This document shows positions 2,834 to 23,039 of a DNA stretch of 37,183 nt, piece after piece (position 1 is the first letter of the stretch; each line of letters opens with the position of its first letter). Source of the stretch: a virus (taxonomy: Duplodnaviria > Heunggongvirae > Uroviricota > Caudoviricetes); the IMG/VR virus record IMGVR_UViG_2537562195_000008. One strand, given 5' to 3'. The notes under the pieces are model-generated. The model was not told where the DNA came from and ran no database searches. It saw only the letters and a program-made list of their open reading frames with translations. Made by a program: the position numbers and the translations under genes.

Positions 2834-3430
2834 TTAATTTGAAACTATTGTACTTCTTATACAAGCAACTACTTCAATATCAGAAAATGCACATTCAAAG
2901 CTATTCTCTGTACTTGTAATTTTAATCATACCTTTTGGAAGCTTTGTGATTTTTCGAATGGAATAGGTTCCGTCGATGTTGATTAACCAGTGCCCATCAA
3001 GTACTTCAGAAAATTTTTGATCACAAATGTATGTGACGAGCCCATCCTGAATAACAATTGGTGATGAAAGATTTGCAGGAAGAAATGATGAATCGAAGAC
3101 ATATGAACCATCTTCAATCATTTTGCCTGCGGTAAGGCGAAACTTGGCAAGCTCTTCTGTAGCTGCTGTCAGCGAGCTTTGCTTAAGGCCTTGCCCGGTG
3201 GTTAACCATTTCAGTGAGGTTCCTGTTTCAAGAGCACATTGGATTATCCAGTCTGCAGGAAACGTATCCCGCAAATACCTGTTCGCCAGAGTGCTTTTTG
3301 ATACTTCCAAGTGATCAGCTAAAGCCTGTCGTGTCGTAAAGCCATAAGCTTCGACTAATCGCTCAATCGCAGCCTTACCACCTTTATTGGGATTTATTTT
3401 GATCTCATTTGGGTACTTTGATGTTGACAT
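2834..3430 (-). CDS. cI: Immunity repressor CI (186-type: N-terminal HTH, C-terminal oligomerisation domain)
   Basis: 198 aa; resembles 186 CI as recalled (…EAYGF…LA..L.VS.STLANRY…CALETG..L.WL.TG…); divergent from the early lytic operon. Confidence 0.8.
   Translation of the reverse strand: MSTSKYPNEIKINPNKGGKAAIERLVEAYGFTTRQALADHLEVSKSTLANRYLRDTFPADWIIQCALETGTSLKWLTTGQGLKQSSLTAATEELAKFRLTAGKMIEDGSYVFDSSFLPANLSSPIVIQDGLVTYICDQKFSEVLDGHWLINIDGTYSIRKITKLPKGMIKITSTENSFECAFSDIEVVACIRSTIVSN
3406..3418. promoter_or_regulatory. Putative operator repeat copy 1 (CATTTGGGTACTT) in the cI/apl switch region
   Basis: Exact 13-bp direct repeat with 3465..3477, about 59 bp apart, flanking the cI start and the divergent pR region. 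Confidence 0.4.
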
Positions 3431-6184: not shown

Positions 6185-8595
6185 GCCATGCCGATATGAG
6201 CAACTGCTGCGGCTTTAACGAGGCTGCCGCATCGTTCTCATGGAACAGCCCGAAAAAGGCCATTAACCCTTATCTGGACCCGGCGGAAGTTGCGCCGGTT
6301 TCTGCGCTTTCAAACCTGATCACTCTGTACGCTGCCGATAACGAGCAGGAACAACTGCGCCGCGAGGCACTGAGTGATCAGGTCTGGGAGCGTTATTTCT
6401 TTAATGAATCCCGTGATCCTGTCCAACGCGAAATAGAGCAGGATAAGCTCATTAGCCGGGCAAAGTTGGCGCATGAGCAGCAGCGTTTTAACCCGGACAT
6501 GGTCATTCTGGCAGACGTCAGCGCCCAGCCCTCCCATATCAGCAAGCCGCTGATGCAACGTATTGAATACTTCAGCAGCCTGGGCAGGCCAAAGGCTTAT
6601 TCCCGCTATTTACGTGAGACGATTAAGCCATGTCTGGAACGACTGGAGCATGTACGCGACAGCCAGCTATCTGCATCTTTTCGTTTTATGGCAAGCCATG
6701 TAGGGCTGGACGGCCTGCTGATTCTGCCTGAAATGAGTCAGGATCAGGTGAAACGCCTGTCTACCCTTGTCGCTGCGCATATGAGCATGTGCCTTGATGC
6801 AGCTTGTGGTGATTTGTATGCCACCGATGACGTTAAGCCAGAAGAAATCCGCAAGACATGGGAAAAGGTGGCAGCGGAAACCCTGCGTCTGGATGTCATC
6901 CCGCCTGCGTTTGAGCAACTCCGTCGGAAAAGAAACCGCCGTAAACCCGTGCCCTATGAACTCATTCCGGGTTCGCTGGCGCGTATGTTGTGCGCCGACT
7001 GGTGGTACCGGAAATTATGGAAAATGCGTTGCGAATGGCGGGAAGAGCAGTTGCGTGCTGTCTGCCTGGTCAGCAAAAAAGCATCTCCCTATGTCAGCTA
7101 TGAAGCCGTGATGCATAAACGTGAGCAGCGCCGCAAGTCACTGGAGTTTTTCCGTTCTCATGAACTGGTGAACGAAGAGGGCGACACGCTGGATATGGAA
7201 GACGTGGTAAACGCCAGCAGCAGCAACCCGGCGCACCGCCGCAATGAGATGATGGCCTGTGTTAAAGGTCTGGAGCTTATCGCGGAAATGCGCGGTGACT
7301 GCGCCGTTTTCTACACCATTACCTGTCCGTCACGTTTCCATTCCACGCTCAATAACGGCAGACCAAACCCAACCTGGACAAATGCGACGGTAAGACAAAG
7401 CAGCGATTATCTGGTCGGCATGTTTGCTGCATTTCGTAAGGCGATGCACAAAGCCGGGTTGCGCTGGTATGGCGTGCGGGTGGCTGAGCCGCATCATGAC
7501 GGTACAGTTCACTGGCACCTGTTGTGTTTCATGCGCAAAAAAGACCGCCGCGCCATTACTGCATTGTTGCGTAAGTTTGCCATCCGTGAAGACCGCGAGG
7601 AACTGGGTAATAACACTGGTCCACGCTTTAAATCTGAGCTGATAAACCCGCGCAAAGGAACGCCGACAAGCTACATCGCGAAATACATCAGTAAGAACAT
7701 TGACGGGCGTGGTCTGGCTGGCGAGATCAGCAAGGAAACGGGTAAATCCCTGCGTGATAACGCTGAATACGTTAATGCCTGGGCGTCTCTGCATCGTGTT
7801 CAGCAATTCCGCTTCTTTGGTATTCCGGGACGTCAGGCTTACCGTGAACTTCGCTTGCTGGCTGGTCAGGCGGCAAGGCAACAGGGTGACAAAAAAGCAG
7901 GTGCGCCGGTACTGGATAACCCGCGTCTTGATGCCATTCTGGCTGCTGCTGATGCTGGTTGTTTTGCCACCTACATCATGAAGCAGGGCGGCGTACTGGT
8001 TCCCCGCAAATATCACCTCATCAGAACCGCTTATGAAATCAACGAAGAGCCAACCGCCTATGGCGATCACGGTATTCGTATTTATGGCATCTGGTCACCC
8101 ATTGCAGAGGGCAAGATCTGCACTCATGCAGTGAAGTGGAAAATGGTTCGTAAGGCCGTTGACGTTCAGGAGGCGGCAGCCGACCAGGGCGCTTGCGCCC
8201 CTTGGACTCGTGGCAATAACTGTCCCCTTGCTGAAAATTTGTACCAACAAGGGAAAGACAAATCAGCTGATGGGGGCTCCAGAACGGACATTACCCGCAT
8301 GGATGACAAGGAATTGCACGATTACCTGCACAGTATGAGCAAAAAAGATCGCCGGGAGCTGGCAGCAAGGTTGCGCCTGGTGAAACCGAAACGGCGTAAA
8401 GACTACAAACAGCGAATTACAGATCATCAGCATCAGCAGCTCGTCTATGAACTGAAGTCCAGAGGATTTGATGGCAGCGAGAAAGAAGTCGATTTGCTCC
8501 TTCGCGGTGGCAGTATTCCGTCAGGAGCAGGCTTGCGTATCTTCTATCGGAACCAGCGTTTGCGGGAAGATGATAAGTGGCGGAACCTGTATTAA
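6181..8595 (+). CDS. A: Replication initiation endonuclease A (rolling-circle HUH nickase, P2 gpA family)
   Basis: 804 aa; HUH-type motif [10 protein letters not shown] and downstream tyrosine-containing segment ([10 protein letters not shown]); start overlaps dam stop (ATGA). Confidence 0.85.
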
Positions 8596-8689
8596 TTACG
8601 CGGGTTAACAATTCGTGCTCTTAATAATACCAGGCATATCAGGCTGATGAACGTAAAAAAACGTTTTACATCAGTAAGATTATTATATA

Positions 8690-8705
8690 CTGTAAATATA
8701 AACAG
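8690..8705. promoter_or_regulatory. LexA (SOS) box CTGTAAATATAAACAG
   Basis: Perfect CTGT-N8-ACAG palindromic half-sites with AT-rich spacer, about 45 bp upstream of the tum-like ORF. Confidence 0.75.
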
Positions 8706-8748
8706 TGGTTGTGTATACAGTATTTCTTGTGGTGTCATAGGAGGAAAG

Positions 8749-8937
8749 ATGCAGGACTATTTTTTGGAGTCTTTGAAGCTCCAGCGCATTGATTTTTTTC
8801 TTAAGCTTGTAGCGGCTAGTGAGTGTAGTGATGAAGAGAAGGGGCTAGCTTTGCAGTGGGTTTCTGAACTAACAGATGAACTCATGGCAAAAATCAGAAC
8901 CCACGAATACAACCGCTCAATGGATGTCATCAGTTGA
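8749..8937 (+). CDS. Tum-like antirepressor N-terminal part (SOS-controlled)
   Basis: 62-aa ORF from internal ATG directly after GGAGGAAAG; downstream of LexA box; by 186 analogy the LexA-controlled gene is the antirepressor tum. Confidence 0.45.
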   Translation: MQDYFLESLKLQRIDFFLKLVAASECSDEEKGLALQWVSELTDELMAKIRTHEYNRSMDVIS

Positions 8938-8947
8938 GGTGACTTTT

Positions 8948-9181
8948 ATGCGCATTGAAATAATGATCGATAAAGAGCAGAAGATTAGCCAGTCTATCCT
9001 GGACGCCCTTGAATCCGAGCTTTACCGCAATCTGCGCCCCCTGTATCCCAAAACGGTAATTCGTATCCGCAAAGGTAGCTCTAACGGTGTGGAACTGACC
9101 GGACTGCAACTGGACGAAGAAAGAAAACAAGTGATGAAAATTATGCAGAAAGTGTGGGAAGACGACAGCTGGCTGCATTAA
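8948..9181 (+). CDS. DinI-like protein (Tum C-terminal/DinI family)
   Basis: 77 aa from internal ATG of ORF 8876..9181; MRIEIMIDKEQKISQSILDALESEL…VIRIRKGSSNGVELTG…MQKVWEDDSW resembles the DinI fold sequence. Confidence 0.7.
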   Translation: MRIEIMIDKEQKISQSILDALESELYRNLRPLYPKTVIRIRKGSSNGVELTGLQLDEERKQVMKIMQKVWEDDSWLH

Positions 9182-9187
9182 GAAACG

Positions 9188-9222
9188 TTGCTGGCGTCTG
9201 AACTTGCTTCTGGCGCCAGCAA
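9188..9222. other. Inverted repeat (TTGCTGGCG … CGCCAGCAA) after the DinI-like gene; possible terminator
   Basis: 9-bp perfect inverted repeat containing palindrome CTGGCGCCAG; no obvious T-tract, so the terminator assignment is weak. Confidence 0.3.
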
Positions 9223-9384
9223 GGTTGAACAACGAGCCGTGCGAGGCGTTAGCTCTGTGGTGCATGTCTATGCCGCATGAGATCGCATGATCGTTTGAGG
9301 ATCGTTTTTGCTAAGGCCCGCCAGAACTGTCGGGCTTTTGCGTAGATCATGCAGGTGCATGAAAACCACTACATAAAGCGGGCA

Positions 9385-9403
9385 GGCGTGGCGGGGATAC
9401 GAG
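9385..9403. other. cos: Putative cos (cohesive-end) site, P2/186-like GGCGTGGCGGGGA…
   Basis: GGCGTGGCGGGGATACGAG resembles the P2/186 19-nt cohesive end as recalled (GGCG(A/T)GGCGGGGAAAGCA…); lies in a non-coding gap between the early region and the portal-side island. Confidence 0.5.
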
Positions 9404-9577
9404 CGCGCGCTGATAGGGTAATCGTCAAAACAGGCATCAGCTAGGTTGAGTTGTAGCGGTGCTTAAGTTTGCTCGTTGTTTGATAGAGCTTAATGTATGT
9501 AATTGCCTACAGCTGTGGTTATCTATTAACATGTAAGGATAAGGTCACTTGCTCGCTGCCATTAGAAGAGGAACTGG

Positions 9578-10048
9578 ATGTCTATCGAGGAAAAATTTTT
9601 TAGTGATATCGATTTAAAAGATCCGTTTTTTAACAGCCTAAGAGCTGATTATGAAGGATTTGATGTTTGGTTTCTCTCAAAAGGTAAAAATAAGGCGTTT
9701 GTATCACGTAATGAATTAGGTGAAATCGATGGTTTTCTCTATTTGAAAATAGAAGATGAAGAGTTGAGTGATATGACTCCAACGTTTCCAAAGATGAAGC
9801 GAGTAAAGCTTGGCACATTTAAAATCGATGCTCATGGAACCAAACTTGGAGAGCGTTTTATTAGAATTATGTTTCAATTTGCTATGAGAAACAAACTAAA
9901 AGAAGTATATGTTACTATATTTGATAAGCATTCAGGGTTAATTCGCTTATTAACTAAATATGGTTTTGTTTTAAAGGCGAGGAAAAATCTTTCTACGATT
10001 AATGGGCAAGAAGGTGTATACTTTAAAAACTTGGTATGGAAGGAGTAA
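9578..10048 (+). CDS. Hypothetical protein, possibly GNAT-fold N-acyltransferase-like; island gene 1
   Basis: 156 aa; C-terminal half (…KLGTFKIDAHGTKLGERFIRIMFQFA…EVYVTIFDKHSGLIRLLTKYGFVL) resembles GNAT motifs A/B; AT-rich. Confidence 0.5.
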   Translation: MSIEEKFFSDIDLKDPFFNSLRADYEGFDVWFLSKGKNKAFVSRNELGEIDGFLYLKIEDEELSDMTPTFPKMKRVKLGTFKIDAHGTKLGERFIRIMFQFAMRNKLKEVYVTIFDKHSGLIRLLTKYGFVLKARKNLSTINGQEGVYFKNLVWKE

Positions 10049-10051
10049 AAA

Positions 10052-10633
10052 ATGAGCTATGCTAATTATCCCTTAGTCAAATTGCAGGGGAGAAATTATT
10101 TATTAAGTATTTATCCTGCATGGCATACACGTCTTTTCCCTGAGTCAAAACTCCACAATGAGAGTGCTGGTATCATCGCTGATATATCACATACCAACAG
10201 TATTGAAAAAGTATACTTAACAAAAATGCATGGGGTAGCCAGCCTAAAGCCTGGAGATAATTTGCTTATTTATCGTACTTCAGATGGACAAGGTCCAGCT
10301 CGGTTTAGATCTGTTGCAACTTCAGTGTGTGTGGTTCAGGAAATTAAAGATATTCACGATTTCTTAACTTATGAGGAATTTAAGAATTACTGTGAACCTT
10401 ATAGCGTTTTTGATGAAGATGAGTTACAGCTTCTATATATGAAAAAAAATTATCCGATAATTATACGGTTTACTTATAATTTCCCTTTGGAAAAAAGAGT
10501 TATTCGTGATGAAATCATGAATATTACAGGTTATACCAATAGTGATTATTGGGGTTTTTTACCACTAACTGATTCAGCATTTAAGCAGATTGTCTTACAG
10601 GGAGGTGTTGATGAAAGTTTTATTATCGATTAA
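10052..10633 (+). CDS. Hypothetical protein; island gene 2
   Basis: 193-aa ORF tightly linked (4-nt gap) to the upstream gene; no motif recognised; AT-rich. Confidence 0.55.
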   Translation: MSYANYPLVKLQGRNYLLSIYPAWHTRLFPESKLHNESAGIIADISHTNSIEKVYLTKMHGVASLKPGDNLLIYRTSDGQGPARFRSVATSVCVVQEIKDIHDFLTYEEFKNYCEPYSVFDEDELQLLYMKKNYPIIIRFTYNFPLEKRVIRDEIMNITGYTNSDYWGFLPLTDSAFKQIVLQGGVDESFIID

Positions 10634-10980
10634 GCCAGAGTATGCAGAGAGTATACTTTCTGGTAAAAAAATATGAGTTTCGGAAAAATATTTTTAGAAA
10701 TAAAAATGTTGATACGATAGTTATTTACGCAACGATGCCGGTTGGCAAAGTAATAGGTGAATTTAAAGTAGGAGATATTCTTGCTCTATCCCCTTCAGAA
10801 TTGTGGGATAAAACGAAAGCTCATGCAGGAATTACACATTCTTTTTTTAAAGATTATTTCCACCAAAGAGAAAAGGCTTTTGCTATTTCCATCAAAAGCC
10901 CTAAAAGATATAAATTCCCTGTCGACTTAAATGAGTTGATTCCCGGCGGCGTCGCCCCACAGTCTTATCGTTATTTATAA
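10611..10980 (+). pseudogene. ASCH/PUA-like domain protein interrupted by a frameshift at an A7 tract; island gene 3
   Basis: ATG at 10611 encodes MKVLLSIKPEYAESILSGKK then hits TGA; the listed ORF 10642..10980 continues in another frame with …YEFRKN…IVIYATMPVGKVIGEFKVGDIL…AFAISIKSPKRYKFPVDL…; together they form a typical ASCH domain; the frames meet at poly-A 10665..10671. Confidence 0.5.
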
Positions 10981-11520
10981 TGTTGTCTGGGCATGTTTCT
11001 TAACCATGCCCAGTTTTTCTAGGGCAATAGATAAATCGTTTGTTGTTGGGGATTCTAAGATAATTAATGGTACATTGATTTTATTTGTAACATATTTTGC
11101 GTTTTCTCTTTCAGCTTCCATCAGCTTATTTAAATCATAAGTAATATCACTCCCATCTCGTTTCATTATTCGTTCTCTAATTGTATCGGGAGACTCCTCA
11201 ACTAAAATTACTCCATCTAGCCCCATTTCCTCAAATACTTCTTGCTTGAGAACTTCAATATCTCCATTTTTATTTATTAAGGTAAAATGACCATCCAATA
11301 AAATATTGGATACCTTTGACTTTAATGCATTAAGTGCCGTAAGTAATATTGATTGGTTTTTATCAGGTGTGGCCGTTAACTTACTGTTATCAAATTTAAT
11401 ATTAGAATTATTTTTTATAAGTTCGCTTGCGCTTACATGAGTTACCCCGAAATCATCTTTTGCAAATGAACACAAGTAACCTTTGCCTACACCATGAACA
11501 CCTGCTATGAAAATTAACAT
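10975..11520 (-). CDS. P-loop NTPase, nucleotide/nucleoside kinase-like; island gene 4
   Basis: 181 aa; Walker A GVHGVGKG at the N-terminus, hhhhD Walker B-like ILLDGHF; size and layout like small adenylate/dNMP kinase-like ATPases; RBS GGAGG upstream. Confidence 0.6.
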   Translation of the reverse strand: MLIFIAGVHGVGKGYLCSFAKDDFGVTHVSASELIKNNSNIKFDNSKLTATPDKNQSILLTALNALKSKVSNILLDGHFTLINKNGDIEVLKQEVFEEMGLDGVILVEESPDTIRERIMKRDGSDITYDLNKLMEAERENAKYVTNKINVPLIILESPTTNDLSIALEKLGMVKKHAQTTL

Positions 11521-11585
11521 AGTATTACCTCCGTTTATTTATTTATGTTAGAATGTTATAGCCTTAGCATAGTAGAGGATAGAGC

Positions 11586-11963
11586 ATGAAGTTTCAAGCT
11601 ATATCGATTTTGACTCCAGCGGTAGAAAATATTATAAATGGTTCTAAATCTATCGAAATACGGTCGTGGTATCCTGAAACGATACCATTAAAAAACGTCA
11701 TTCTTGTTCAGAATGATAAATATCTTAAAAATCAAAGCGATATAGATCATGGGGTGGCTATGGCTATTGTCGATTTTGTTTCAGTTAGAAATTGGTCATA
11801 TGAGGATTACTTAAAACAAAACCAAGAAACAACTCTTAATAAGCCTTGGTCTCCAGGTTATTATGTGTGGGAAATTAAAAATGTTAGAATTTTAAAAAAA
11901 TCTATTCCTTGTGTGGCGAGGAAAGGTATTTATACAATAGATTTAAATATGGATTATATATAA
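11586..11963 (+). CDS. ASCH/PUA-like domain protein; island gene 5
   Basis: 125 aa; …SKSIEIRSW… and C-terminal …YVWEIKNVRILKKSIPCVARKGIYTIDL match the ASCH pattern (Y-x-W-x-L…P…kG.qgi) from memory. Confidence 0.6.
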   Translation: MKFQAISILTPAVENIINGSKSIEIRSWYPETIPLKNVILVQNDKYLKNQSDIDHGVAMAIVDFVSVRNWSYEDYLKQNQETTLNKPWSPGYYVWEIKNVRILKKSIPCVARKGIYTIDLNMDYI

Positions 11964-11974
11964 GGTATTGTGAG

Positions 11975-12766
11975 ATGTGTGGTGCCATTCTTCGAAATAT
12001 TAAGCGTTATGCCATTATTTATTCACTGTTGTTTTTGGCTTTTATTTTAATGCTGATAGTGTTTGTTAGCTATGTTTGTAAATTTGGAATGTATTCATGG
12101 AGTGATTCCGTAGAGAAATGGGGACAGTTTGGCGATTATATTGGTGGTGTACTGAATCCTGCTCTGGCCTTTATCTCTATCATGCTTGTTTGTTTCACAC
12201 TATATTCTACATCTAGGCAGTCATCTATTCAGTCATTCGAGTCTGTGTTATTTGAGTTACTAAGATTTCATAAAGATAACTTATCAGAAATTAAAACAAC
12301 GTATTCAGATGGAAAAGTGTATGTAGGACGGGAGGCTCTTTCATTATACATTACCGAAGTGAAGTTTAACCTACTTAATATTGTGGATGATTCACTTCCT
12401 TTGGATGAAAGGTTAGAGCTTTCAGTTAATATGGTTTATCTGGAAGGTGACAATTTTGCGAATGTGGGACATTATTTCAGGAATATTTACCATATTTTTA
12501 AACATATCAATGACTCTAACTATTTGACTGAGAAAGAAAAAACCAAGTATGCGAAATTAGTTAGAGCACAAATATCTTCTATAGAATCTGGCGCGATGCT
12601 ATTAAATGGTTTTTCATCGGTAGGAAAGCCTGCCAAGAAATTTATTGAAAAATATTCTCTCCTTCAGGGGTTTAGTTTAAGTAAGGAATTCAAGCAGCAA
12701 TTACATGATTTAGGTGCCTTAAAATTATACGATGACGTTGCTTATGAGGATAAAAAAGGGCATTAA
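11975..12766 (+). CDS. Membrane protein with two N-terminal TM helices and a cytoplasmic domain (candidate effector); island gene 6
   Basis: Internal ATG of ORF 11909..12766; hydrophobic helices IIYSLLFLAFILMLIVFVSYV and IGGVLNPALAFISIMLVCFTLY; stop overlaps the convergent portal gene stop. Confidence 0.55.
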   Translation: MCGAILRNIKRYAIIYSLLFLAFILMLIVFVSYVCKFGMYSWSDSVEKWGQFGDYIGGVLNPALAFISIMLVCFTLYSTSRQSSIQSFESVLFELLRFHKDNLSEIKTTYSDGKVYVGREALSLYITEVKFNLLNIVDDSLPLDERLELSVNMVYLEGDNFANVGHYFRNIYHIFKHINDSNYLTEKEKTKYAKLVRAQISSIESGAMLLNGFSSVGKPAKKFIEKYSLLQGFSLSKEFKQQLHDLGALKLYDDVAYEDKKGH

Positions 12767-20313: not shown

Positions 20314-20707
20314 AGCGGTGCCTTATGTCCGCAATAATCCGGACAAACTGCATCTGTTTGTGGATAACGGTTCGCTGGTTGCTACGGGGGCCAGCTCCAT
20401 GTCATGGGAGTACCGTTACACCCTAAACGTGGTGATTGAGGATTTCAGCGGCGACCAGAATCTGTTGATGGCCCCGGTTTTGCTGTGGCTGCGGGATAAC
20501 CAGCCTGATGCCATCAATAACCCGGCGTTACGGGAAAAGTTATTCACCTTTGAGGTGGATATTTTGCGCAACGATGTCTGTGATATCAGCCTTAACCTGC
20601 AACTGACGGAGCGTGTGCTGGTCAGCACTGACGGCGGTATATCAACGGTCAAGGCAAAGCCGGAACCTGACGAGCCAGAAGAAACGTGGACGGTGAAACG
20701 TGGATAA
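20255..20707 (+). CDS. R: Tail completion protein R (P2 gpR family)
   Basis: …LHLFVDNGSLVATGASSMSWEYRYTLNVVIEDFSGDQNLLMAPVLLWLRDNQPD… resembles P2 gpR as recalled; the true start may be the GTG at about 20276 (preceded by AGGAG). Confidence 0.75.
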   Translation: MRVRSETVNKPQSLRHALNKAVPYVRNNPDKLHLFVDNGSLVATGASSMSWEYRYTLNVVIEDFSGDQNLLMAPVLLWLRDNQPDAINNPALREKLFTFEVDILRNDVCDISLNLQLTERVLVSTDGGISTVKAKPEPDEPEETWTVKRG

Positions 20708-21155
20708 TCTGCATAAAGTGGATGAGTGGCTGGCAGTGCTGCTGGCGAATCTGGAGCCGGCTGCTCGTCAGCGCATGATGCGCGAACTGGCGCAAGAACT
20801 GCGTCGGACACAACAGCAGAACATCAGGCTGCAACGTAATCCTGATGGAACCGGCTACGAGCCGCGAAAAGTCACGGCACGGACTAAAAAGGGGCGTATT
20901 AAGCGACAGATGTTTTCGAAATTGCGTACAGCGAAGTACCTGAAAACTGCAGCCAGCGCGGATTCAGCCAGCGTGCAGTTTGAAGGGAAAGTTCAACGGA
21001 TTGCACGGGTACATCATTACGGTCTTCGTGATCGAGTAAGCCGTAAGGGACCGGTAGTGAGTTATGTAGAGCGTCGTTTGTTAGGATTCGATAAGAAAAT
21101 TAACAAAAATATACTAGAAGGGTTGCTCAGGATTTTTGATGACTATTTGCCTTAG
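20700..21155 (+). CDS. S: Tail completion/virion morphogenesis protein S (P2 gpS family)
   Basis: 151 aa; GTG start overlapping R stop; canonical position; the 3' end runs into AT-rich DNA. Confidence 0.7.
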   Translation: MDNLHKVDEWLAVLLANLEPAARQRMMRELAQELRRTQQQNIRLQRNPDGTGYEPRKVTARTKKGRIKRQMFSKLRTAKYLKTAASADSASVQFEGKVQRIARVHHYGLRDRVSRKGPVVSYVERRLLGFDKKINKNILEGLLRIFDDYLP

Positions 21156-21254
21156 CTTCAAGTTTTAAATATTGTAAATTTTAGATTGGTTGGTTTTGTT
21201 TGTTATTCTAATGAGATGAATTAAAGTTTGTTTTTAAGTTTATTTTTTATTATG

Positions 21255-21283
21255 CTGAAACCTCATAAATGATGAGGTTTCAG
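21255..21283 (+). promoter_or_regulatory. 12-bp perfect stem-loop (CTGAAACCTCAT-aaatg-ATGAGGTTTCAG) ending 2 nt before the HExxH gene start
   Basis: Perfect inverted repeat read directly; the only GAGG near the ATG lies inside the 3' arm. Confidence 0.5.
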
Positions 21284-21284
21284 T

Positions 21285-22337
21285 ATGATTAAATTAATGT
21301 CTGAATATAATGATGATTATAAAAAACTAGAAAGATATATTGAAGAGTATATTATAAGGAATAGTCTAGGCACTCAGGTATATAAAGAGGATCAGTTGGC
21401 TCAGTCATTAAATAGTGATGAGGGTTTTTCTTATGTGCGTAATAAAATGGATAATTTACCTTCTGATTGTATTGAAGAGTTATCAAACAATATTCAAGGT
21501 GTAGTTACTCTTCCAACAATCTATGATGATCGTGTGAGTTATAGCATTGCATCTCGCTTGATGAGTAAGGTTGAATTAGTAGCAAAGATATTTCCTTTTG
21601 ATCACCAAAACTATGGTGGGTTTTGTTGTGCTCCAACCGGCAGAGTTAGTGCACTTGCCGCGCCAGTTAAATGCCTAGACGGAAAGTCAAAGGTTTTCAC
21701 AATTTTTGAGTCTGGGATTTTTCAATTTATTCATGGTGTAATTAGTTTGTTTGTTAGCAGTTATCCTAATACTCTTCTGCAAGGTAGTAGTGAAAAAGAG
21801 TGGCGGTCAGAGTGGGAAAAATATTTGAGTAGTGAGCAGAATAGAAGCGCTTTATTACAAAGCAAGATTGACTTAAACGAATGGAGGGATTTTTTTAAGA
21901 ATTACAATGTACGTGGTGAACTTGCTTATACATCGATAATTAACTTCGGTCCTGTAGGGCAAAAGATTATATATAATATGGTCTTTGGCTGTGAGTTATT
22001 CGTAGCCGCTCATGAATATTCTCATGCCATGATGAATCATCAGCAGCCTGATTTAGTTGAATCAGAGGTTGAGAAGGAGGCTGACAAATGGGGGATTAGG
22101 ATTGCGTCCATTATATGTGAAGGTGAAGGTATTCTGATGATTCTTGCGATTGCTGGAATAGCTATATTTTTTTCGGCAATTGAAACGTCTGATCCATCTC
22201 ACTATTTACCAGCAGCTGAACGAATATTGTTCGTGATAAAGTCCTTGGAGATCTCTGATCCTATTAAGGAAAAAACTCTTATTGATATTTCTTGTTTAAT
22301 GCAGGATATATTTTCCGACATTATTAATTTTGAATGA
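21285..22337 (+). CDS. Putative Zn-dependent metallopeptidase (HExxH) with C-terminal hydrophobic helix; cargo gene between S and V
   Basis: 350 aa; motif AAHEYSHAMMNH with downstream acidic residues (EVEKEADKWG); hydrophobic stretch ILMILAIAGIAIFFSAI; strongly AT-rich. Confidence 0.6.
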   Translation: MIKLMSEYNDDYKKLERYIEEYIIRNSLGTQVYKEDQLAQSLNSDEGFSYVRNKMDNLPSDCIEELSNNIQGVVTLPTIYDDRVSYSIASRLMSKVELVAKIFPFDHQNYGGFCCAPTGRVSALAAPVKCLDGKSKVFTIFESGIFQFIHGVISLFVSSYPNTLLQGSSEKEWRSEWEKYLSSEQNRSALLQSKIDLNEWRDFFKNYNVRGELAYTSIINFGPVGQKIIYNMVFGCELFVAAHEYSHAMMNHQQPDLVESEVEKEADKWGIRIASIICEGEGILMILAIAGIAIFFSAIETSDPSHYLPAAERILFVIKSLEISDPIKEKTLIDISCLMQDIFSDIINFE

Positions 22338-22460
22338 TTTTTCTCGTAAGTACGCAGTGAAAATACTGTGTACTTTCTACTTAATTTCAGAAGTTTTGTA
22401 TCATTATTAATACAATCCAATCACATCGAATAATTCTAATATGTTGTGCATTATTCTTTT

Positions 22461-23039
22461 ATGAACGCACAAATCACAGAAATCATGCGCCTTATCACCA
22501 ACCTGATCCGCACTGGGGTAGTCACCGAAGTGGACCGGGAAAACTGGCTTTGCCGGGTGAAAACGGGCGACCTTGAAACCAACTGGATCAGCTGGCTGAC
22601 GCTGCGTGCCGGGAATGCCCGCACATGGTGGCGACCATCGGAAGGTGAACAGGTGGTGCTGCTGAGTCTGGGAGGTAATCTGGAAACAGCCTTTGCGCTG
22701 CCCGCTGTCTATTCGAATCAGTTCGCACCACCGTCGACGTCGGCGGATGCCTGCGTGATAGAACATCCTGACGGTGGCTGGTTTGAATACGAACCAGCCA
22801 CTGGGCGCTGGTATGTCAGGGGCATCAAATCAATGGTCATTGAGGCCGCCGACAATATCACCCTGAAAACCAGTGAGTTTGTGCTGGAGGCTGACCGCAC
22901 GCGTATTAACAGCGAAGTGGTGATCAATGGTGGCGTTACCCAGGGCGGAGGAGCGATGAGTTCTAACGGGATCGTGGTTGATGCGCATCAGCATACTGGC
23001 GTTCTGAAAGGCGGCGACACAACCGGAGGCCCGGTATGA
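22461..23039 (+). CDS. V: Baseplate spike/assembly protein V (P2 gpV family)
   Basis: …IRTGVVTEVD…CRVKTG…WLTLRAGNARTWWRPSEGEQVVLLSLGG…TAFALP… resembles P2 gpV as recalled; start chosen at internal ATG. Confidence 0.8.
   Translation: MNAQITEIMRLITNLIRTGVVTEVDRENWLCRVKTGDLETNWISWLTLRAGNARTWWRPSEGEQVVLLSLGGNLETAFALPAVYSNQFAPPSTSADACVIEHPDGGWFEYEPATGRWYVRGIKSMVIEAADNITLKTSEFVLEADRTRINSEVVINGGVTQGGGAMSSNGIVVDAHQHTGVLKGGDTTGGPV

What the first reader, a model, noticed from the sequence alone, without database searches (positions are those of the whole stretch)
21255..21283. Perfect 12-bp hairpin abutting the start codon of the HExxH gene
Seen in sequence: CTGAAACCTCAT-aaatg-ATGAGGTTTCAG ends 2 nt before the ATG at 21285, and the only purine-rich Shine-Dalgarno-like element (GAGG) lies in the 3' arm of the stem. 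Inference: the hairpin could terminate read-through from the late tail operon and/or occlude the ribosome-binding site, keeping the cargo gene translationally silent until a trigger opens it. Such tight control is often seen for toxic effectors.
Basis: partly seen in the sequence, partly recalled or inferred. Interest (0 to 1): 0.45.

Follow-up and report, generated by a model that had tools for sequence, protein, structure and literature searches.

The report
Start-site-masking hairpin on prophage protease gene
A very stable RNA hairpin buries the ribosome-binding site and start codon of an imported metalloprotease gene in a P2-like E. coli prophage; it most likely stops the gene being translated from phage late transcripts that run into it, a known kind of control and not a transcription terminator.

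Summary
The hairpin is real. It has a perfect 12-bp stem (21255-21266 / 21272-21283, loop AAATG). As sense RNA it extends to 18 bp (21249-21289, -24.4 kcal/mol) and covers the GAGG Shine-Dalgarno and the AUG at 21285. Freeing this start site costs 24 kcal/mol, the highest of 47 genes (mean 10). The stem has no U-tract, so it is not a canonical terminator, and it matches no Rfam family.

The gene is a 350-aa zincin-fold HExxH protease with only motif-level similarity to Lit. It lies in an AT-rich cassette in the known gpS/gpV accessory slot of a P2/186-like prophage.

The hairpin is not a family feature. Relatives at 68-79% aa identity in the same slot lack it. It arose when the 5' arm changed to complement the older SD segment: a bulged form in Enterobacter and IMG/VR copies, then a perfect form in E. 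coli. The gene stays under purifying selection (dN/dS ~0.19), so it must be translated.

The only promoter-like element at a conserved position (TTGTTT-17-TATGCT) overlaps the 5' arm. Transcripts from it would lack that arm and have an open start site (5-8 kcal/mol). My best reading is therefore IS10-like insulation against read-through. The transcription start is predicted, not shown.

The parts
20700..21155 (+). gpS-type tail completion gene, last gene of the upstream late operon. Its last ~100 nt are already AT-rich, so they belong to the imported cassette.
   Evidence: Pfam Phage_tail_S E=5e-39; RefSeq annotation; GC drops from ~21050.
21050..22460 (.). AT-rich island (25-41% GC against ~57% in the flanks). 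It holds the 3' end of S, the leader, the protease gene, a terminator-like hairpin and an AT-rich copy of the gpV late promoter.
   Evidence: Composition profile; junction comparison with the empty-slot phages SopEPhi, 186 and L-413C.
21147..21175 (+). Rival upstream promoter-like site TTGCCT-17-TATTGT. A start near 21182 would put the whole hairpin in the transcript.
   Evidence: PWM score 9.5 in the window, 5.4-6.5 in the Enterobacter copy, at most 2.7 for the same pair in L014, where the -10 is TATTGC. Not conserved across lineages.
21228..21256 (+). Promoter-like element TTGTTT (21228-21233), 17-nt spacer, TATGCT (21251-21256). The -10 overlaps the base of the 5' arm. The predicted start at 21262-21265 lies at the top of the 5' arm.
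   Evidence: It is the only promoter-like pair at the same aligned position in six lineages (window, L014, L004, L001, L002, L016) despite diverged spacers; L007 keeps TATGTT but with a 15-nt spacer. The score is weak (5.2-6.8). The start site is inferred, not observed.
21249..21266 (+). 5' arm of the RNA helix: perfect core 21255-21266, outer extension 21249-21254. This is the evolutionarily derived arm.
   Evidence: Folding; alignment showing the arm differs from L004 at 5 of 11 columns, each change creating complementarity.
21267..21271 (+). Loop AAATG (GAATG in the Enterobacter copies).
21272..21289 (+). 3' arm. It contains the Shine-Dalgarno GAGG (21274-21277) and the start codon (21285-21287). 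This is the ancestral segment, conserved in all lineages as (G)AGGTG..CATGAT. A21282 is a window-type insertion that removes a bulge.
21285..22337 (+). Cargo gene: 350-aa HExxH (H243-E244-x-x-H247) zincin-fold metallopeptidase with a hydrophobic C-terminal segment and only distant, motif-level similarity to Lit.
22348..22382 (+). Terminator-like hairpin after the cargo gene: an 11-12 bp stem followed by UUCUACUU.
   Evidence: Own lenient scan and RNAfold. It falls just below the threshold of the tool scan.
22397..22414 (+). TGT-N12-ACA dyad, the Ogr/Delta-type activator box of the gpV late promoter. It sits 64 nt before the gpV ATG at 22461.
   Evidence: Pattern found. The same 64-nt distance occurs in SopEPhi. 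gpV start from RefSeq. Assigning this dyad to Ogr-dependent P2 late promoters is from established knowledge, not tested here.

Best explanation
The element is a sense-strand RNA stem-loop in the leader of an imported 'moron' gene, a zincin metalloprotease that is probably an anti-phage or exclusion factor. The gene sits in the gpS/gpV accessory slot of a P2/186-like prophage.

Any transcript that contains both arms has the Shine-Dalgarno and the AUG locked in an 18-bp helix and cannot start translation at 21285. That includes late-operon transcripts running out of gene S, because there is no terminator between S and the hairpin.

The gene's own weak promoter (TTGTTT-17-TATGCT) has its -10 in the base of the 5' arm. 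Its transcripts would start at about 21262-21265, lack the 5' arm and have an open ribosome-binding site. The hairpin would then silence read-through transcripts and spare self-promoted ones, as IS10 does by fold-back inhibition.

What is shown: the structure, its stability, its strand specificity, its lineage-specific origin, the absence of a terminator, and purifying selection on the gene. What is inferred: the position of the transcription start, actual read-through from S, and the benefit of keeping a protease that may shut off translation from being made during the phage's own late phase.
For: Occlusion:
- Opening -14..+13 around the AUG costs 24.2 kcal/mol in the window and 20.7 in L014. 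It costs 4-14 in all other lineages. It is the highest of 47 annotated genes (mean 10.1, sd 3.95).

Dependence on the 5' end:
- Any 5' end upstream of 21250 gives 24-26 kcal/mol. Ends at 21262-21265 give 5-8.5.
- The difference between a long leader and a 22-nt leader is 17.9 kcal/mol. For the other 46 genes it averages 0.89 (sd 2.47, max 8.2).

Promoter:
- TTGTTT-17-TATG[C/A]T is the only promoter-like pair at the same aligned position in six lineages with diverged spacers; L007 keeps TATGTT with a 15-nt spacer.

Read-through:
- No terminator-like site lies between the S stop and the hairpin.
- Empty-slot relatives have only 66-69 nt and no terminator between S and V.
- The S stop is 94 nt upstream of the stem, so terminating ribosomes would not melt it (sequence).

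Sense-RNA specificity:
- The + strand folds at -24.4 kcal/mol and the - strand at -17.0, because the outer pairs are G.U.

The protein must be made:
- dN/dS is 0.18-0.20 at dS 0.11-0.17 inside the hairpin clade, and all ORFs are intact. Some transcripts must therefore escape the stem.

Directional evolution:
- No structure in L004 (-6.1 kcal/mol, z -0.6), a bulged 10+7-bp helix in L014 and L028 (-20.8), then a continuous 18 bp in the window (-24.4).

Precedent:
- IS10 translation signals are sequestered (Davis, Simons & Kleckner 1985, as cited in PMC13181058).
- IS200 has a terminator against impinging transcription plus an SD-sequestering stem (PMC4513863).
Against: - The promoter is weak (7 of 12 consensus positions, PWM ~5.2). 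Scores that high occur at 1.4% of positions in this AT-rich island, and no transcript data exist.
- In the window itself a better-scoring upstream candidate (TTGCCT-17-TATTGT, 9.5) would put the hairpin in the native transcript.
- Conservation of TATTATG could reflect its pairing with CAUGAU rather than promoter function.
- Relatives at 68-79% identity in the same slot lack the hairpin, so insulation is not required for carrying this gene.
- Variation inside the clade is too sparse to prove constraint on pairing: 2 of 44 stem columns vary against 12 of 89 leader columns. The stem also overlaps the SD, the AUG and coding sequence.
- Pair counts across lineages barely exceed the shuffle control (80.0% against 77.3%, 24 of 500 shuffles).
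Confidence: 0.45

Rival explanations
1. Constitutive throttle or trigger-opened switch. The native transcript starts upstream, for example near 21182 from TTGCCT-17-TATTGT, so every cargo mRNA carries the full hairpin. Translation is then kept near zero until something opens or removes the stem, such as a helicase, a nuclease cut, an antisense RNA or an incoming-phage factor. Alternatively, rare breathing of the stem gives the very low dose that a toxic protease needs.
For: - The upstream candidate has the best promoter score in the window (9.5 against 5.2).
- Occlusion is extreme.
- The gene is under purifying selection, so it is expressed somehow.
- The zincin protease fold fits a potentially toxic product.
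Against: - The upstream candidate is not conserved even in the 94%-identical L014, where the -10 is TATTGC and the score is at most 2.7.
- No trans-acting opener, antisense partner or riboswitch-like alternative fold is evident, and there is no Rfam match.
- By the published thermodynamics of MS2 coat-gene hairpins (de Smit & van Duin 1990, recalled from memory), a helix of -21 to -24 kcal/mol should give essentially no translation. That is hard to reconcile with purifying selection unless there is an escape route.
Confidence: 0.25
2. 3'-end element for the late operon. The stem acts on transcripts of gene S as a weak or atypical terminator, as an RNase III processing site, or as a barrier to 3' exonucleases that stabilises the upstream late mRNA. 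Its overlap with the cargo RBS would then be incidental.
For: - It lies 94 nt after the S stop and nothing else there looks like a terminator.
- An 18-bp continuous helix (22 bp with one mismatch) approaches the roughly two helical turns that E. coli RNase III needs (the size requirement is recalled knowledge).
Against: - There is no U-tract: the tails are UAUGAUUA or UAAAUUAA on the + strand and A-rich on the - strand.
- Empty-slot relatives have no terminator after S, so the phage does not need one there.
- The arms were built on the cargo's SD and AUG, not placed at the end of S.
- A better terminator-like hairpin exists after the cargo gene at 22348-22382.
Confidence: 0.1
3. Mutational by-product without selected function. 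An imperfect palindrome was 'corrected' by intramolecular template switching during replication (quasipalindrome mutagenesis). The ancestral outer pairs AUUAUG:CAUGAU plus CAT/ATG at the loop would have seeded it. The result is tolerated because the gene is expressed from a start inside the stem or matters little.
For: - Five of 11 columns of the 5' arm differ from L004 against 1 of 19 in the rest, and every change creates complementarity to the older 3' arm.
- The later window-type change is a 1-nt insertion exactly opposite the bulged T.
- The outer six pairs already exist in all seven lineages.
- This pattern is what templated mutation produces (recalled knowledge; Ripley-type models).
Against: - Origin and function are separate questions: a templated origin does not exclude selection afterwards.
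- The hairpin has persisted through dS ~0.11-0.17 of divergence in E. coli, Enterobacter and a metagenomic virus, with no change in the 5' arm and only one loop change.
- Two successive steps both increased stability.
Confidence: 0.12
4. DNA-level site. The 12-bp palindrome with a 5-bp spacer is an operator for a dimeric DNA-binding protein, or a cruciform or recombination site.
For: The repeat has perfect dyad symmetry and overlaps a promoter-like -10 and the predicted start region.
Against: - The helix extends by G.U pairs that exist only in + strand RNA.
- The sequence is not repeated elsewhere in the window.
- It does not occur in other enterobacterial contexts: there is one viral contig, which is the same locus, and 7 unrelated hits in 596 Gb.
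- It lies inside the island, not at its borders.
Confidence: 0.03

Closest known systems
IS10/Tn10 protection from external promoters ('fold-back inhibition'; Davis, Simons & Kleckner, Cell 1985, cited in PMC13181058). My own recollection is that IS50 read-through transcripts behave the same way.
   Same: A mobile, potentially harmful gene sits where outside transcription can enter. The ribosome-binding site pairs with a segment lying upstream of the element's own transcription start, so only read-through transcripts are folded shut. Here the computed difference is about 18 kcal/mol.
   Different: The gene here is a phage moron, not a transposase. The transcription start is only predicted. The stem is much longer and perfect. 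It is present in only one sub-lineage of the gene family. No antisense RNA partner is evident.
IS200 tnpA leader (PMC4513863)
   Same: An SD-sequestering stem-loop strongly represses translation, and the element also guards against impinging transcription.
   Different: IS200 uses a separate bidirectional terminator for impinging transcription, and the SD stem is part of the native 5'UTR. Here there is no terminator upstream, and the stem may be absent from the native transcript.
RBS hairpins obeying the stability-expression rule of the MS2 coat gene (de Smit & van Duin 1990; recalled, not retrieved here)
   Same: A local hairpin contains both the SD and the AUG, so expression is expected to fall steeply with stability.
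   Different: At -16 to -24 kcal/mol this stem is far beyond the range where measurable translation remains. It should act as an on/off element rather than a tuner.
Phage morons (promoter + gene + terminator cassettes in late regions) and the P2 tail-gene accessory hotspot (PMC13586616; PMC9122126)
   Same: An AT-rich single-gene cassette lies between gpS and gpV with a downstream terminator-like hairpin. [quoted passage not shown]
   Different: The cassette also carries its own AT-rich copies of the S 3' end and the gpV late promoter, so it probably moves by homologous exchange between P2-like phages. The start-site hairpin is not part of the usual moron description.
Lit (e14) phage-exclusion protease, Peptidase_U49
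   Same: A prophage-borne HExxH metallopeptidase with the shared motif HExxH...E[KR]EAD followed by a hydrophobic segment.
   Different: Similarity is at motif level only (hhalign probability 10%; NCBIfam 16 bits against a cut-off of 274). Target and trigger are unknown. The e14 lit leader shows no comparable palindrome by eye; it was not folded.

Membership tests
Intrinsic (Rho-independent) terminator | Run of U immediately 3' of the stem | tested here: not met
   The tail is UAUGAUUA after the 12-bp stem and UAAAUUAA after the 18-bp stem, and is A-rich on the - strand. No call by the tool scan or by my own scan.
Intrinsic (Rho-independent) terminator | Stable G+C-rich stem downstream of a gene | tested here: inconclusive
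   The stem is stable (-16.4 kcal/mol) but only 5 of its 12 core pairs are G-C. It lies 94 nt after the S stop.
RBS-sequestering leader stem-loop (translational occlusion) | Shine-Dalgarno and/or start codon base-paired in the dominant fold of the mRNA | tested here: met
   GAGG and AUG are both inside the MFE and centroid helix. Opening energy is 24.2 kcal/mol, the highest of 47 genes.
RBS-sequestering leader stem-loop (translational occlusion) | Pairing conserved or covarying among homologous leaders | tested here: not met
   The inner 10-12 pairs exist only in the window/L014/L028 clade and are absent from L004, L001, L016 and L007. Pair counts barely exceed shuffles. The structure is conserved within the clade, but with too little variation to test covariation.
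RBS-sequestering leader stem-loop (translational occlusion) | Stem-disrupting mutations raise translation and compensatory ones restore repression | not testable with these tools
   Needs reporter fusions or toeprinting.
IS10-type fold-back inhibition of read-through transcripts | The 5' complement of the RBS lies upstream of the gene's own transcription start | tested here: inconclusive
   A positionally conserved promoter-like TTGTTT-17-TATGCT puts the start at about 21262-21265, inside the 5' arm. The site is weak, a rival upstream candidate exists, and there are no transcript data.
IS10-type fold-back inhibition of read-through transcripts | Outside transcription can enter the gene | tested here: met
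   Met by computation only. There is no terminator-like site between the S stop and the hairpin, and none between S and V in empty-slot relatives.
RNase III substrate | About two turns (~20 bp or more) of near-perfect dsRNA | tested here: inconclusive
   18 continuous pairs, or 22 with one U-U mismatch. Cleavage cannot be predicted here.
Any curated RNA family (Rfam 15) | Match at or above the family's gathering score | tested here: not met
   Only generic hairpin hits to miRNA precursor models at 15-27 bits against gathering scores of 60-100.
Lit / Peptidase_U49 (for the cargo protein) | Full-length sequence match above the curated cut-off | tested here: not met
   NCBIfam Lit 16 bits against a cut-off of 274. 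No Pfam hit in my own scan. hhalign probability 10% over 31 columns.
Lit / Peptidase_U49 (for the cargo protein) | HExxH zinc site in a zincin fold | tested here: met
Lit / Peptidase_U49 (for the cargo protein) | Peptide-activated cleavage of EF-Tu and exclusion of T-even phages | not testable with these tools
   Needs biochemistry and phage challenge.
Phage moron cassette | Foreign composition, own promoter, own terminator, located inside a late region | tested here: inconclusive
   Composition and location are met. A terminator-like hairpin is found only with lenient criteria. The promoter is only predicted.

The most novel reading that the evidence does not exclude
The hairpin is an infection-responsive translational switch. 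In the lysogen every cargo mRNA is locked. An activity brought by a superinfecting phage, or induced by it, opens or removes the 5' arm; candidates are a nuclease, a helicase, a change in RNase III/RNase E processing, or a burst of transcription from the internal start. The protease would then be made only in infected cells. That would be an abortive-infection effector controlled at the level of ribosome access instead of by protein-level sensing.
Probability: 0.06. Interest if true: 0.75.

Novelty: new member of a known kind. Interest (0 to 1): 0.33.

Why it matters
If the insulation model is right, this is a clean natural example of how a phage carries a potentially self-harmful cargo gene inside its own late operon. 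The cargo is transcribed in bulk during lytic growth but translated only from its own promoter in the lysogen.

The three natural states (no stem, bulged stem, perfect stem) in otherwise homologous cassettes are a ready-made series for measuring how much start-site occlusion matters. They also look like a textbook case of a palindrome perfected by templated mutation.

Practically, anyone cloning this candidate defence gene 'with its native promoter' should know that the upstream boundary of the insert decides whether the gene is translatable.

The mechanism itself is long known, the element is confined to a small clade, and nothing here is experimentally shown.

Tried and rejected
- **Terminator reading:** rejected, because there is no U-tract on either strand.
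- **Known RNA family:** rejected.
- **Mobile repeat or REP-like element:** rejected. The core pattern occurs once in viral contigs, at the same locus. It occurs 7 times in 596 Gb of genomes, all in unrelated Bacteroidales, Bacillaceae and Clostridia, consistent with chance or ordinary terminators; I did not inspect those.
- **Cassette boundary or recombination site:** rejected. The island runs from about 21050 to 22460 and the hairpin is internal to it.
- **Upstream ORF opening the stem:** rejected. ATGATG in the loop is in frame with the gene in L014 and L004 but out of frame in the window (a 7-codon ORF ending at 21293). It has no SD and sits in a 5-nt loop.
- **Translational coupling to S:** rejected, because the S stop is 94 nt upstream.
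- **First promoter registration (GTTTGT-16-TATTAT):** replaced by TTGTTT-17-TATGCT after the PWM scan.
- **Covariation test:** uninformative with 7 lineages.
- **Variation among the five complete E. coli genomes:** none inside 21245-21293, but the copies are at least 99.5% identical.
- **Searches that added little or nothing:**
  - Phage GenBank collection by DNA and by protein.
  - GTDB genomes by protein pattern.
  - Metagenome scan, which added one duplicate and one distant locus.
  - PDB by sequence.
  - The afdb50 fold library, which was unavailable.
- **N-terminally 'truncated' cluster member P0008:** it is a contig break near 21350, not a natural 5' deletion.
- **Literature search for the phrase 'fold-back inhibition':** found nothing. 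The IS10 reference was recovered only through a citing paper.

Full report
**1. The observation**

The sequence at 21255-21283 is CTGAAACCTCAT-AAATG-ATGAGGTTTCAG, as reported. One base (T21284) separates it from the ATG at 21285. GAGG (21274-21277) is the only Shine-Dalgarno-like element in the 20 nt before the ATG. It lies in the 3' arm, 7 nt from the ATG.

As RNA the helix continues outward for six more pairs, two of them G.U, to 21249-21289. The AUG is therefore paired as well. The repeat finder sees 22-nt arms at 21245-21293.

Stand-alone energies:

| Element | Energy (kcal/mol) | Shuffle control |
|---|---|---|
| 49-nt element, + strand | -24.4 | -5.0 +/- 1.9, z = -10.2 |
| 29-nt core, + strand | -16.4 | z = -7.3 |
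| 49-nt element, - strand | -17.0 | z = -6.4 |

The complementary strand is weaker because the G.U pairs become A-C mismatches. That asymmetry points to a sense-RNA structure rather than a DNA palindrome.

It is the longest inverted repeat in the window. A perfect stem of at least 12 bp appeared in 1 of 1000 shuffles of the AT-rich island and in 1 of 60 shuffles of the whole window.

**2. Context**

The window is a P2/186-like prophage of E. coli, inserted next to ybjL. The exact locus occurs in 5 of 5426 complete E. coli genomes, all at least 99.5% identical.

The hairpin sits in an island of 25-41% GC inside ~57% GC phage DNA, from about 21050 to 22460. The island lies between the tail-completion gene S (20700-21155, Pfam Phage_tail_S) and the baseplate gene V (ATG 22461). 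[quoted passage not shown]

The island contains:
- the last ~100 nt of S;
- a 129-nt leader;
- the 350-aa HExxH gene (21285-22337);
- a terminator-like hairpin (22348-22382);
- an AT-rich version of the gpV late promoter.

The promoter's TGT-N12-ACA dyad (22397-22414) lies 64 nt before the V ATG, exactly as in Salmonella phage SopEPhi. Phages with an empty slot (SopEPhi, 186, L-413C) have only 66-69 nt between S and V and no terminator. In the window no terminator-like site lies between the S stop and the hairpin. Late transcription leaving S is therefore expected to run into the cargo gene. This is an inference; no transcript data exist.

**3. The cargo**

Its link to the Lit exclusion protease is weak:
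- 16 bits against a cut-off of 274 in NCBIfam;
- no Pfam hit in my own scans;
- hhalign probability 10% over HExxH...E[KR]EAD against K-12 Lit;
- a PADLOC peptidase model at E = 2.7e-8.

It is best described as an uncharacterised zincin protease that is a candidate defence gene.

**4. Comparative evidence**

Only seven clusters of homologues exist among 5.8 billion proteins. I recovered their loci.

| Lineage | aa identity to window | Location |
|---|---|---|
| L001, L002, L015, L016 | 75-76% | same S/V slot |
| L004-L006 | 79% | same S/V slot |
| L007 | 68% | directly after S |
| L008 (Pantoea, 186-like prophage) | 50% | after the CI repressor |
| L009-L011, L018 | 36-39% | unrelated contexts |

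The leaders of the S/V lineages align. Two outer blocks are shared by all: GTTTGTTTT...TATTATG upstream and GAGGT(G)..CATGATT at the start. The sequence between them differs.

- **Where the inner stem exists.** It is found only in the window type and its close relatives: L014 (IMG/VR, 94% aa) and L028/L029 (Enterobacter ludwigii and E. cloacae, 95% aa).
- **Energies of the relatives' leaders.** L004 folds at -6.1 kcal/mol (z -0.6) and L001 at -4.5 (z +0.2).
- **Which arm is ancestral.** The 3' arm is ancestral: ATGAGGTKTC-GCATG is shared with L004.
- **Which arm is derived.** The 5' arm is derived: L004 and the outgroups share ATAATAAAT[CG]A where the window has CCTCATAAATGA. Five of its 11 columns differ from L004, against 1 of 19 in the rest of the leader, and every change creates complementarity.
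- **First derived form.** L014 and L028 carry a 10-bp inner stem, a bulged T and a 7-bp outer stem (-20.8 kcal/mol).
- **Second derived form.** The window type has an extra A21282 opposite that T, plus C>T at 21284, giving a continuous 18-bp helix.
- **Variation inside the clade.** 12 of 89 upstream leader columns vary, against 2 of 44 stem columns and 1 of 5 loop columns. This is suggestive but not significant, and it is confounded by the SD, the AUG and coding sequence.
- **Pair counts across all seven lineages.** The six outer pairs (AUUAUG:CAUGAU) are universal. The rest barely exceed the shuffle control.

The clustered, complementarity-creating changes and the bulge-filling insertion are what quasipalindrome template switching produces. 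That comparison rests on recalled knowledge and is an inference.

**5. What the stem does to the start site**

Making -14..+13 around the AUG single-stranded costs 24.2 kcal/mol in the window and 20.7 in L014, against 4-14 in every other lineage. It is the largest value among 47 annotated genes of the prophage and its flanks (mean 10.1, sd 3.95).

The cost depends entirely on the 5' end of the RNA. It is 24-26 kcal/mol for any start upstream of 21250 and falls to 5-8.5 for starts at 21262-21265. The difference between a long leader and a 22-nt leader is 17.9 kcal/mol. For the other 46 genes that difference averages 0.89 (sd 2.47, max 8.2).

Within the hairpin clade the gene has dN/dS of 0.18-0.20 at dS 0.11-0.17, and all ORFs are intact. 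The protein has therefore remained useful since the stem arose. Some transcripts, or some condition, must escape the stem.

**6. Where transcription might start**

A simple sigma-70 PWM, built from recalled consensus frequencies, finds one pair at the same aligned position in six lineages: TTGTTT-17-TATGCT (TATGAT in L004). In the window these are 21228-21233 and 21251-21256, and the spacers have diverged. L007 keeps TATGTT but with a 15-nt spacer.

Its -10 lies in the base of the 5' arm, so the start would fall at about 21262-21265. The site is weak (score 5.2-6.8), and scores that high occur at 1.4% of island positions.

The window also has a stronger upstream candidate, TTGCCT-17-TATTGT (21147-21175, score 9.5). 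It degrades in the Enterobacter copy (5.4-6.5) and is lost in L014 (at most 2.7). The start site is the main unknown.

**7. Interpretation**

- **Best explanation (0.45).** The stem silences translation of read-through late transcripts, while transcripts from the internal promoter lack the 5' arm. This is the logic IS10 uses against external promoters (Davis et al. 1985, via PMC13181058). It is also related to the IS200 leader (PMC4513863).
- **Constitutive lock opened by a trigger, or leaking at a very low level (0.25).**
- **3'-end, RNase III or exonuclease-barrier role for the S operon (0.10).**
- **By-product of templated mutation with no selected function (0.12).**
- **DNA-level operator (0.03).**
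- **Canonical terminator:** excluded for lack of a U-tract.
- **Curated RNA family:** none matches.
- **Repeat element:** the sequence is not one.

**8. Novelty and verdict**

Start-site occlusion and read-through insulation are classical mechanisms. This would be a new member of that kind, in a phage moron rather than an insertion sequence. It is confined to one small clade and is unverified.

It has two points of appeal. One is the natural three-step series: no stem, bulged stem, perfect stem. The other is the practical point that the choice of upstream cloning boundary would decide whether this candidate defence gene is expressed. Interest 0.33.

Noticed in passing
window 7673-9793 and 10392-12728: A KAP-family P-loop NTPase gene and a large AAA-family ATPase gene lie between the replication gene and the portal gene. 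That is the main described defence hotspot of P2-like phages (GpA-GpQ). This prophage therefore carries cargo in at least two hotspots (RefSeq annotation of the near-identical copy; hotspot from PMC13586616).
   Followed up: no
window 21050-21155 and 22397-22460: The AT-rich island includes the last ~35 codons of gpS and a complete AT-rich version of the gpV late promoter. Its TGT-N12-ACA box sits at the same 64-nt distance from the V ATG as in SopEPhi. The cassette therefore looks like a piece of a low-GC P2-like phage swapped in by homologous exchange within S and V, not a simple insertion.
   Followed up: partly
window 22348-22382: A terminator-like hairpin follows the cargo stop codon: AAGTACGCAGT / ACTGTGTACTT with one G.U pair, then TTCTACTT. 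It falls just below the tool scan's U-tract threshold. It would end both cargo transcripts and read-through late transcripts just before the gpV promoter.
   Followed up: partly
window 21995-21966, minus strand: The best sigma-70-like match in the region (CTCACA-18-TATAAT, 10 of 12) lies inside the cargo gene on the opposite strand. It would give an antisense transcript running back over the 5' half of the gene and the hairpin. AT-rich DNA often yields such matches.
   Followed up: no
window 21269-21293; L014 2985-3002; L004 3985-4002: ATGATG in the hairpin loop and 3' arm is in frame with the main ATG in L014 and L004, giving a possible MMR(F/C)R extension. L001, L016 and L007 have GTG or TTG at the equivalent place. 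The 1-nt insertion in the window puts it out of frame, as a 7-codon ORF ending at TAA 21291-21293. No SD precedes it. I attribute the conservation to the extended SD GAGGTG.
   Followed up: partly
L008 4001-5050 (Pantoea sp. SM3640, CP064872.1); L009 1585-2643: More distant homologues of the protease sit in other slots. One lies directly after the CI repressor of a 186-like Pantoea prophage. Another lies near a ParE-toxin-like gene on a short metagenomic contig. Neither has a comparable start-site hairpin; opening energies are 9.8 and 4.9 kcal/mol.
   Followed up: partly
L035 (E. coli assembly GCA_012297905.1) and 5 similar contigs: Six draft assemblies break at about window position 21350, some 65 nt downstream of the hairpin. 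This gives rise to 'truncated' 313-aa annotations that start at a TTG codon. It is probably an assembly or coverage problem in 25% GC DNA near a strong palindrome.
   Followed up: partly
window 21255-21261 and 21277-21283: The outer halves of the arms, CTGAAAC and GTTTCAG, resemble the two half-sites of the Cra (FruR) operator as I recall it (TGAAAC|GTTTCA). Here they are 15 bp apart instead of adjacent, so this is probably a coincidence.
   Followed up: no
L032 (Yersinia phage L-413C, P2-type) 2990-3019: In the empty-slot P2-type phage a G+C-rich hairpin (GCCGCCGG-TATGACC-CGGCGGC) lies in the gpV leader, about 12 nt before the V ATG. It is unrelated to the finding but is another structured start region at this junction.
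   Followed up: no
window 9184-9226: The second-longest inverted repeat in the window (19-nt arms, 84% complementary, 5-nt spacer) lies inside the KAP NTPase gene.
   Followed up: no
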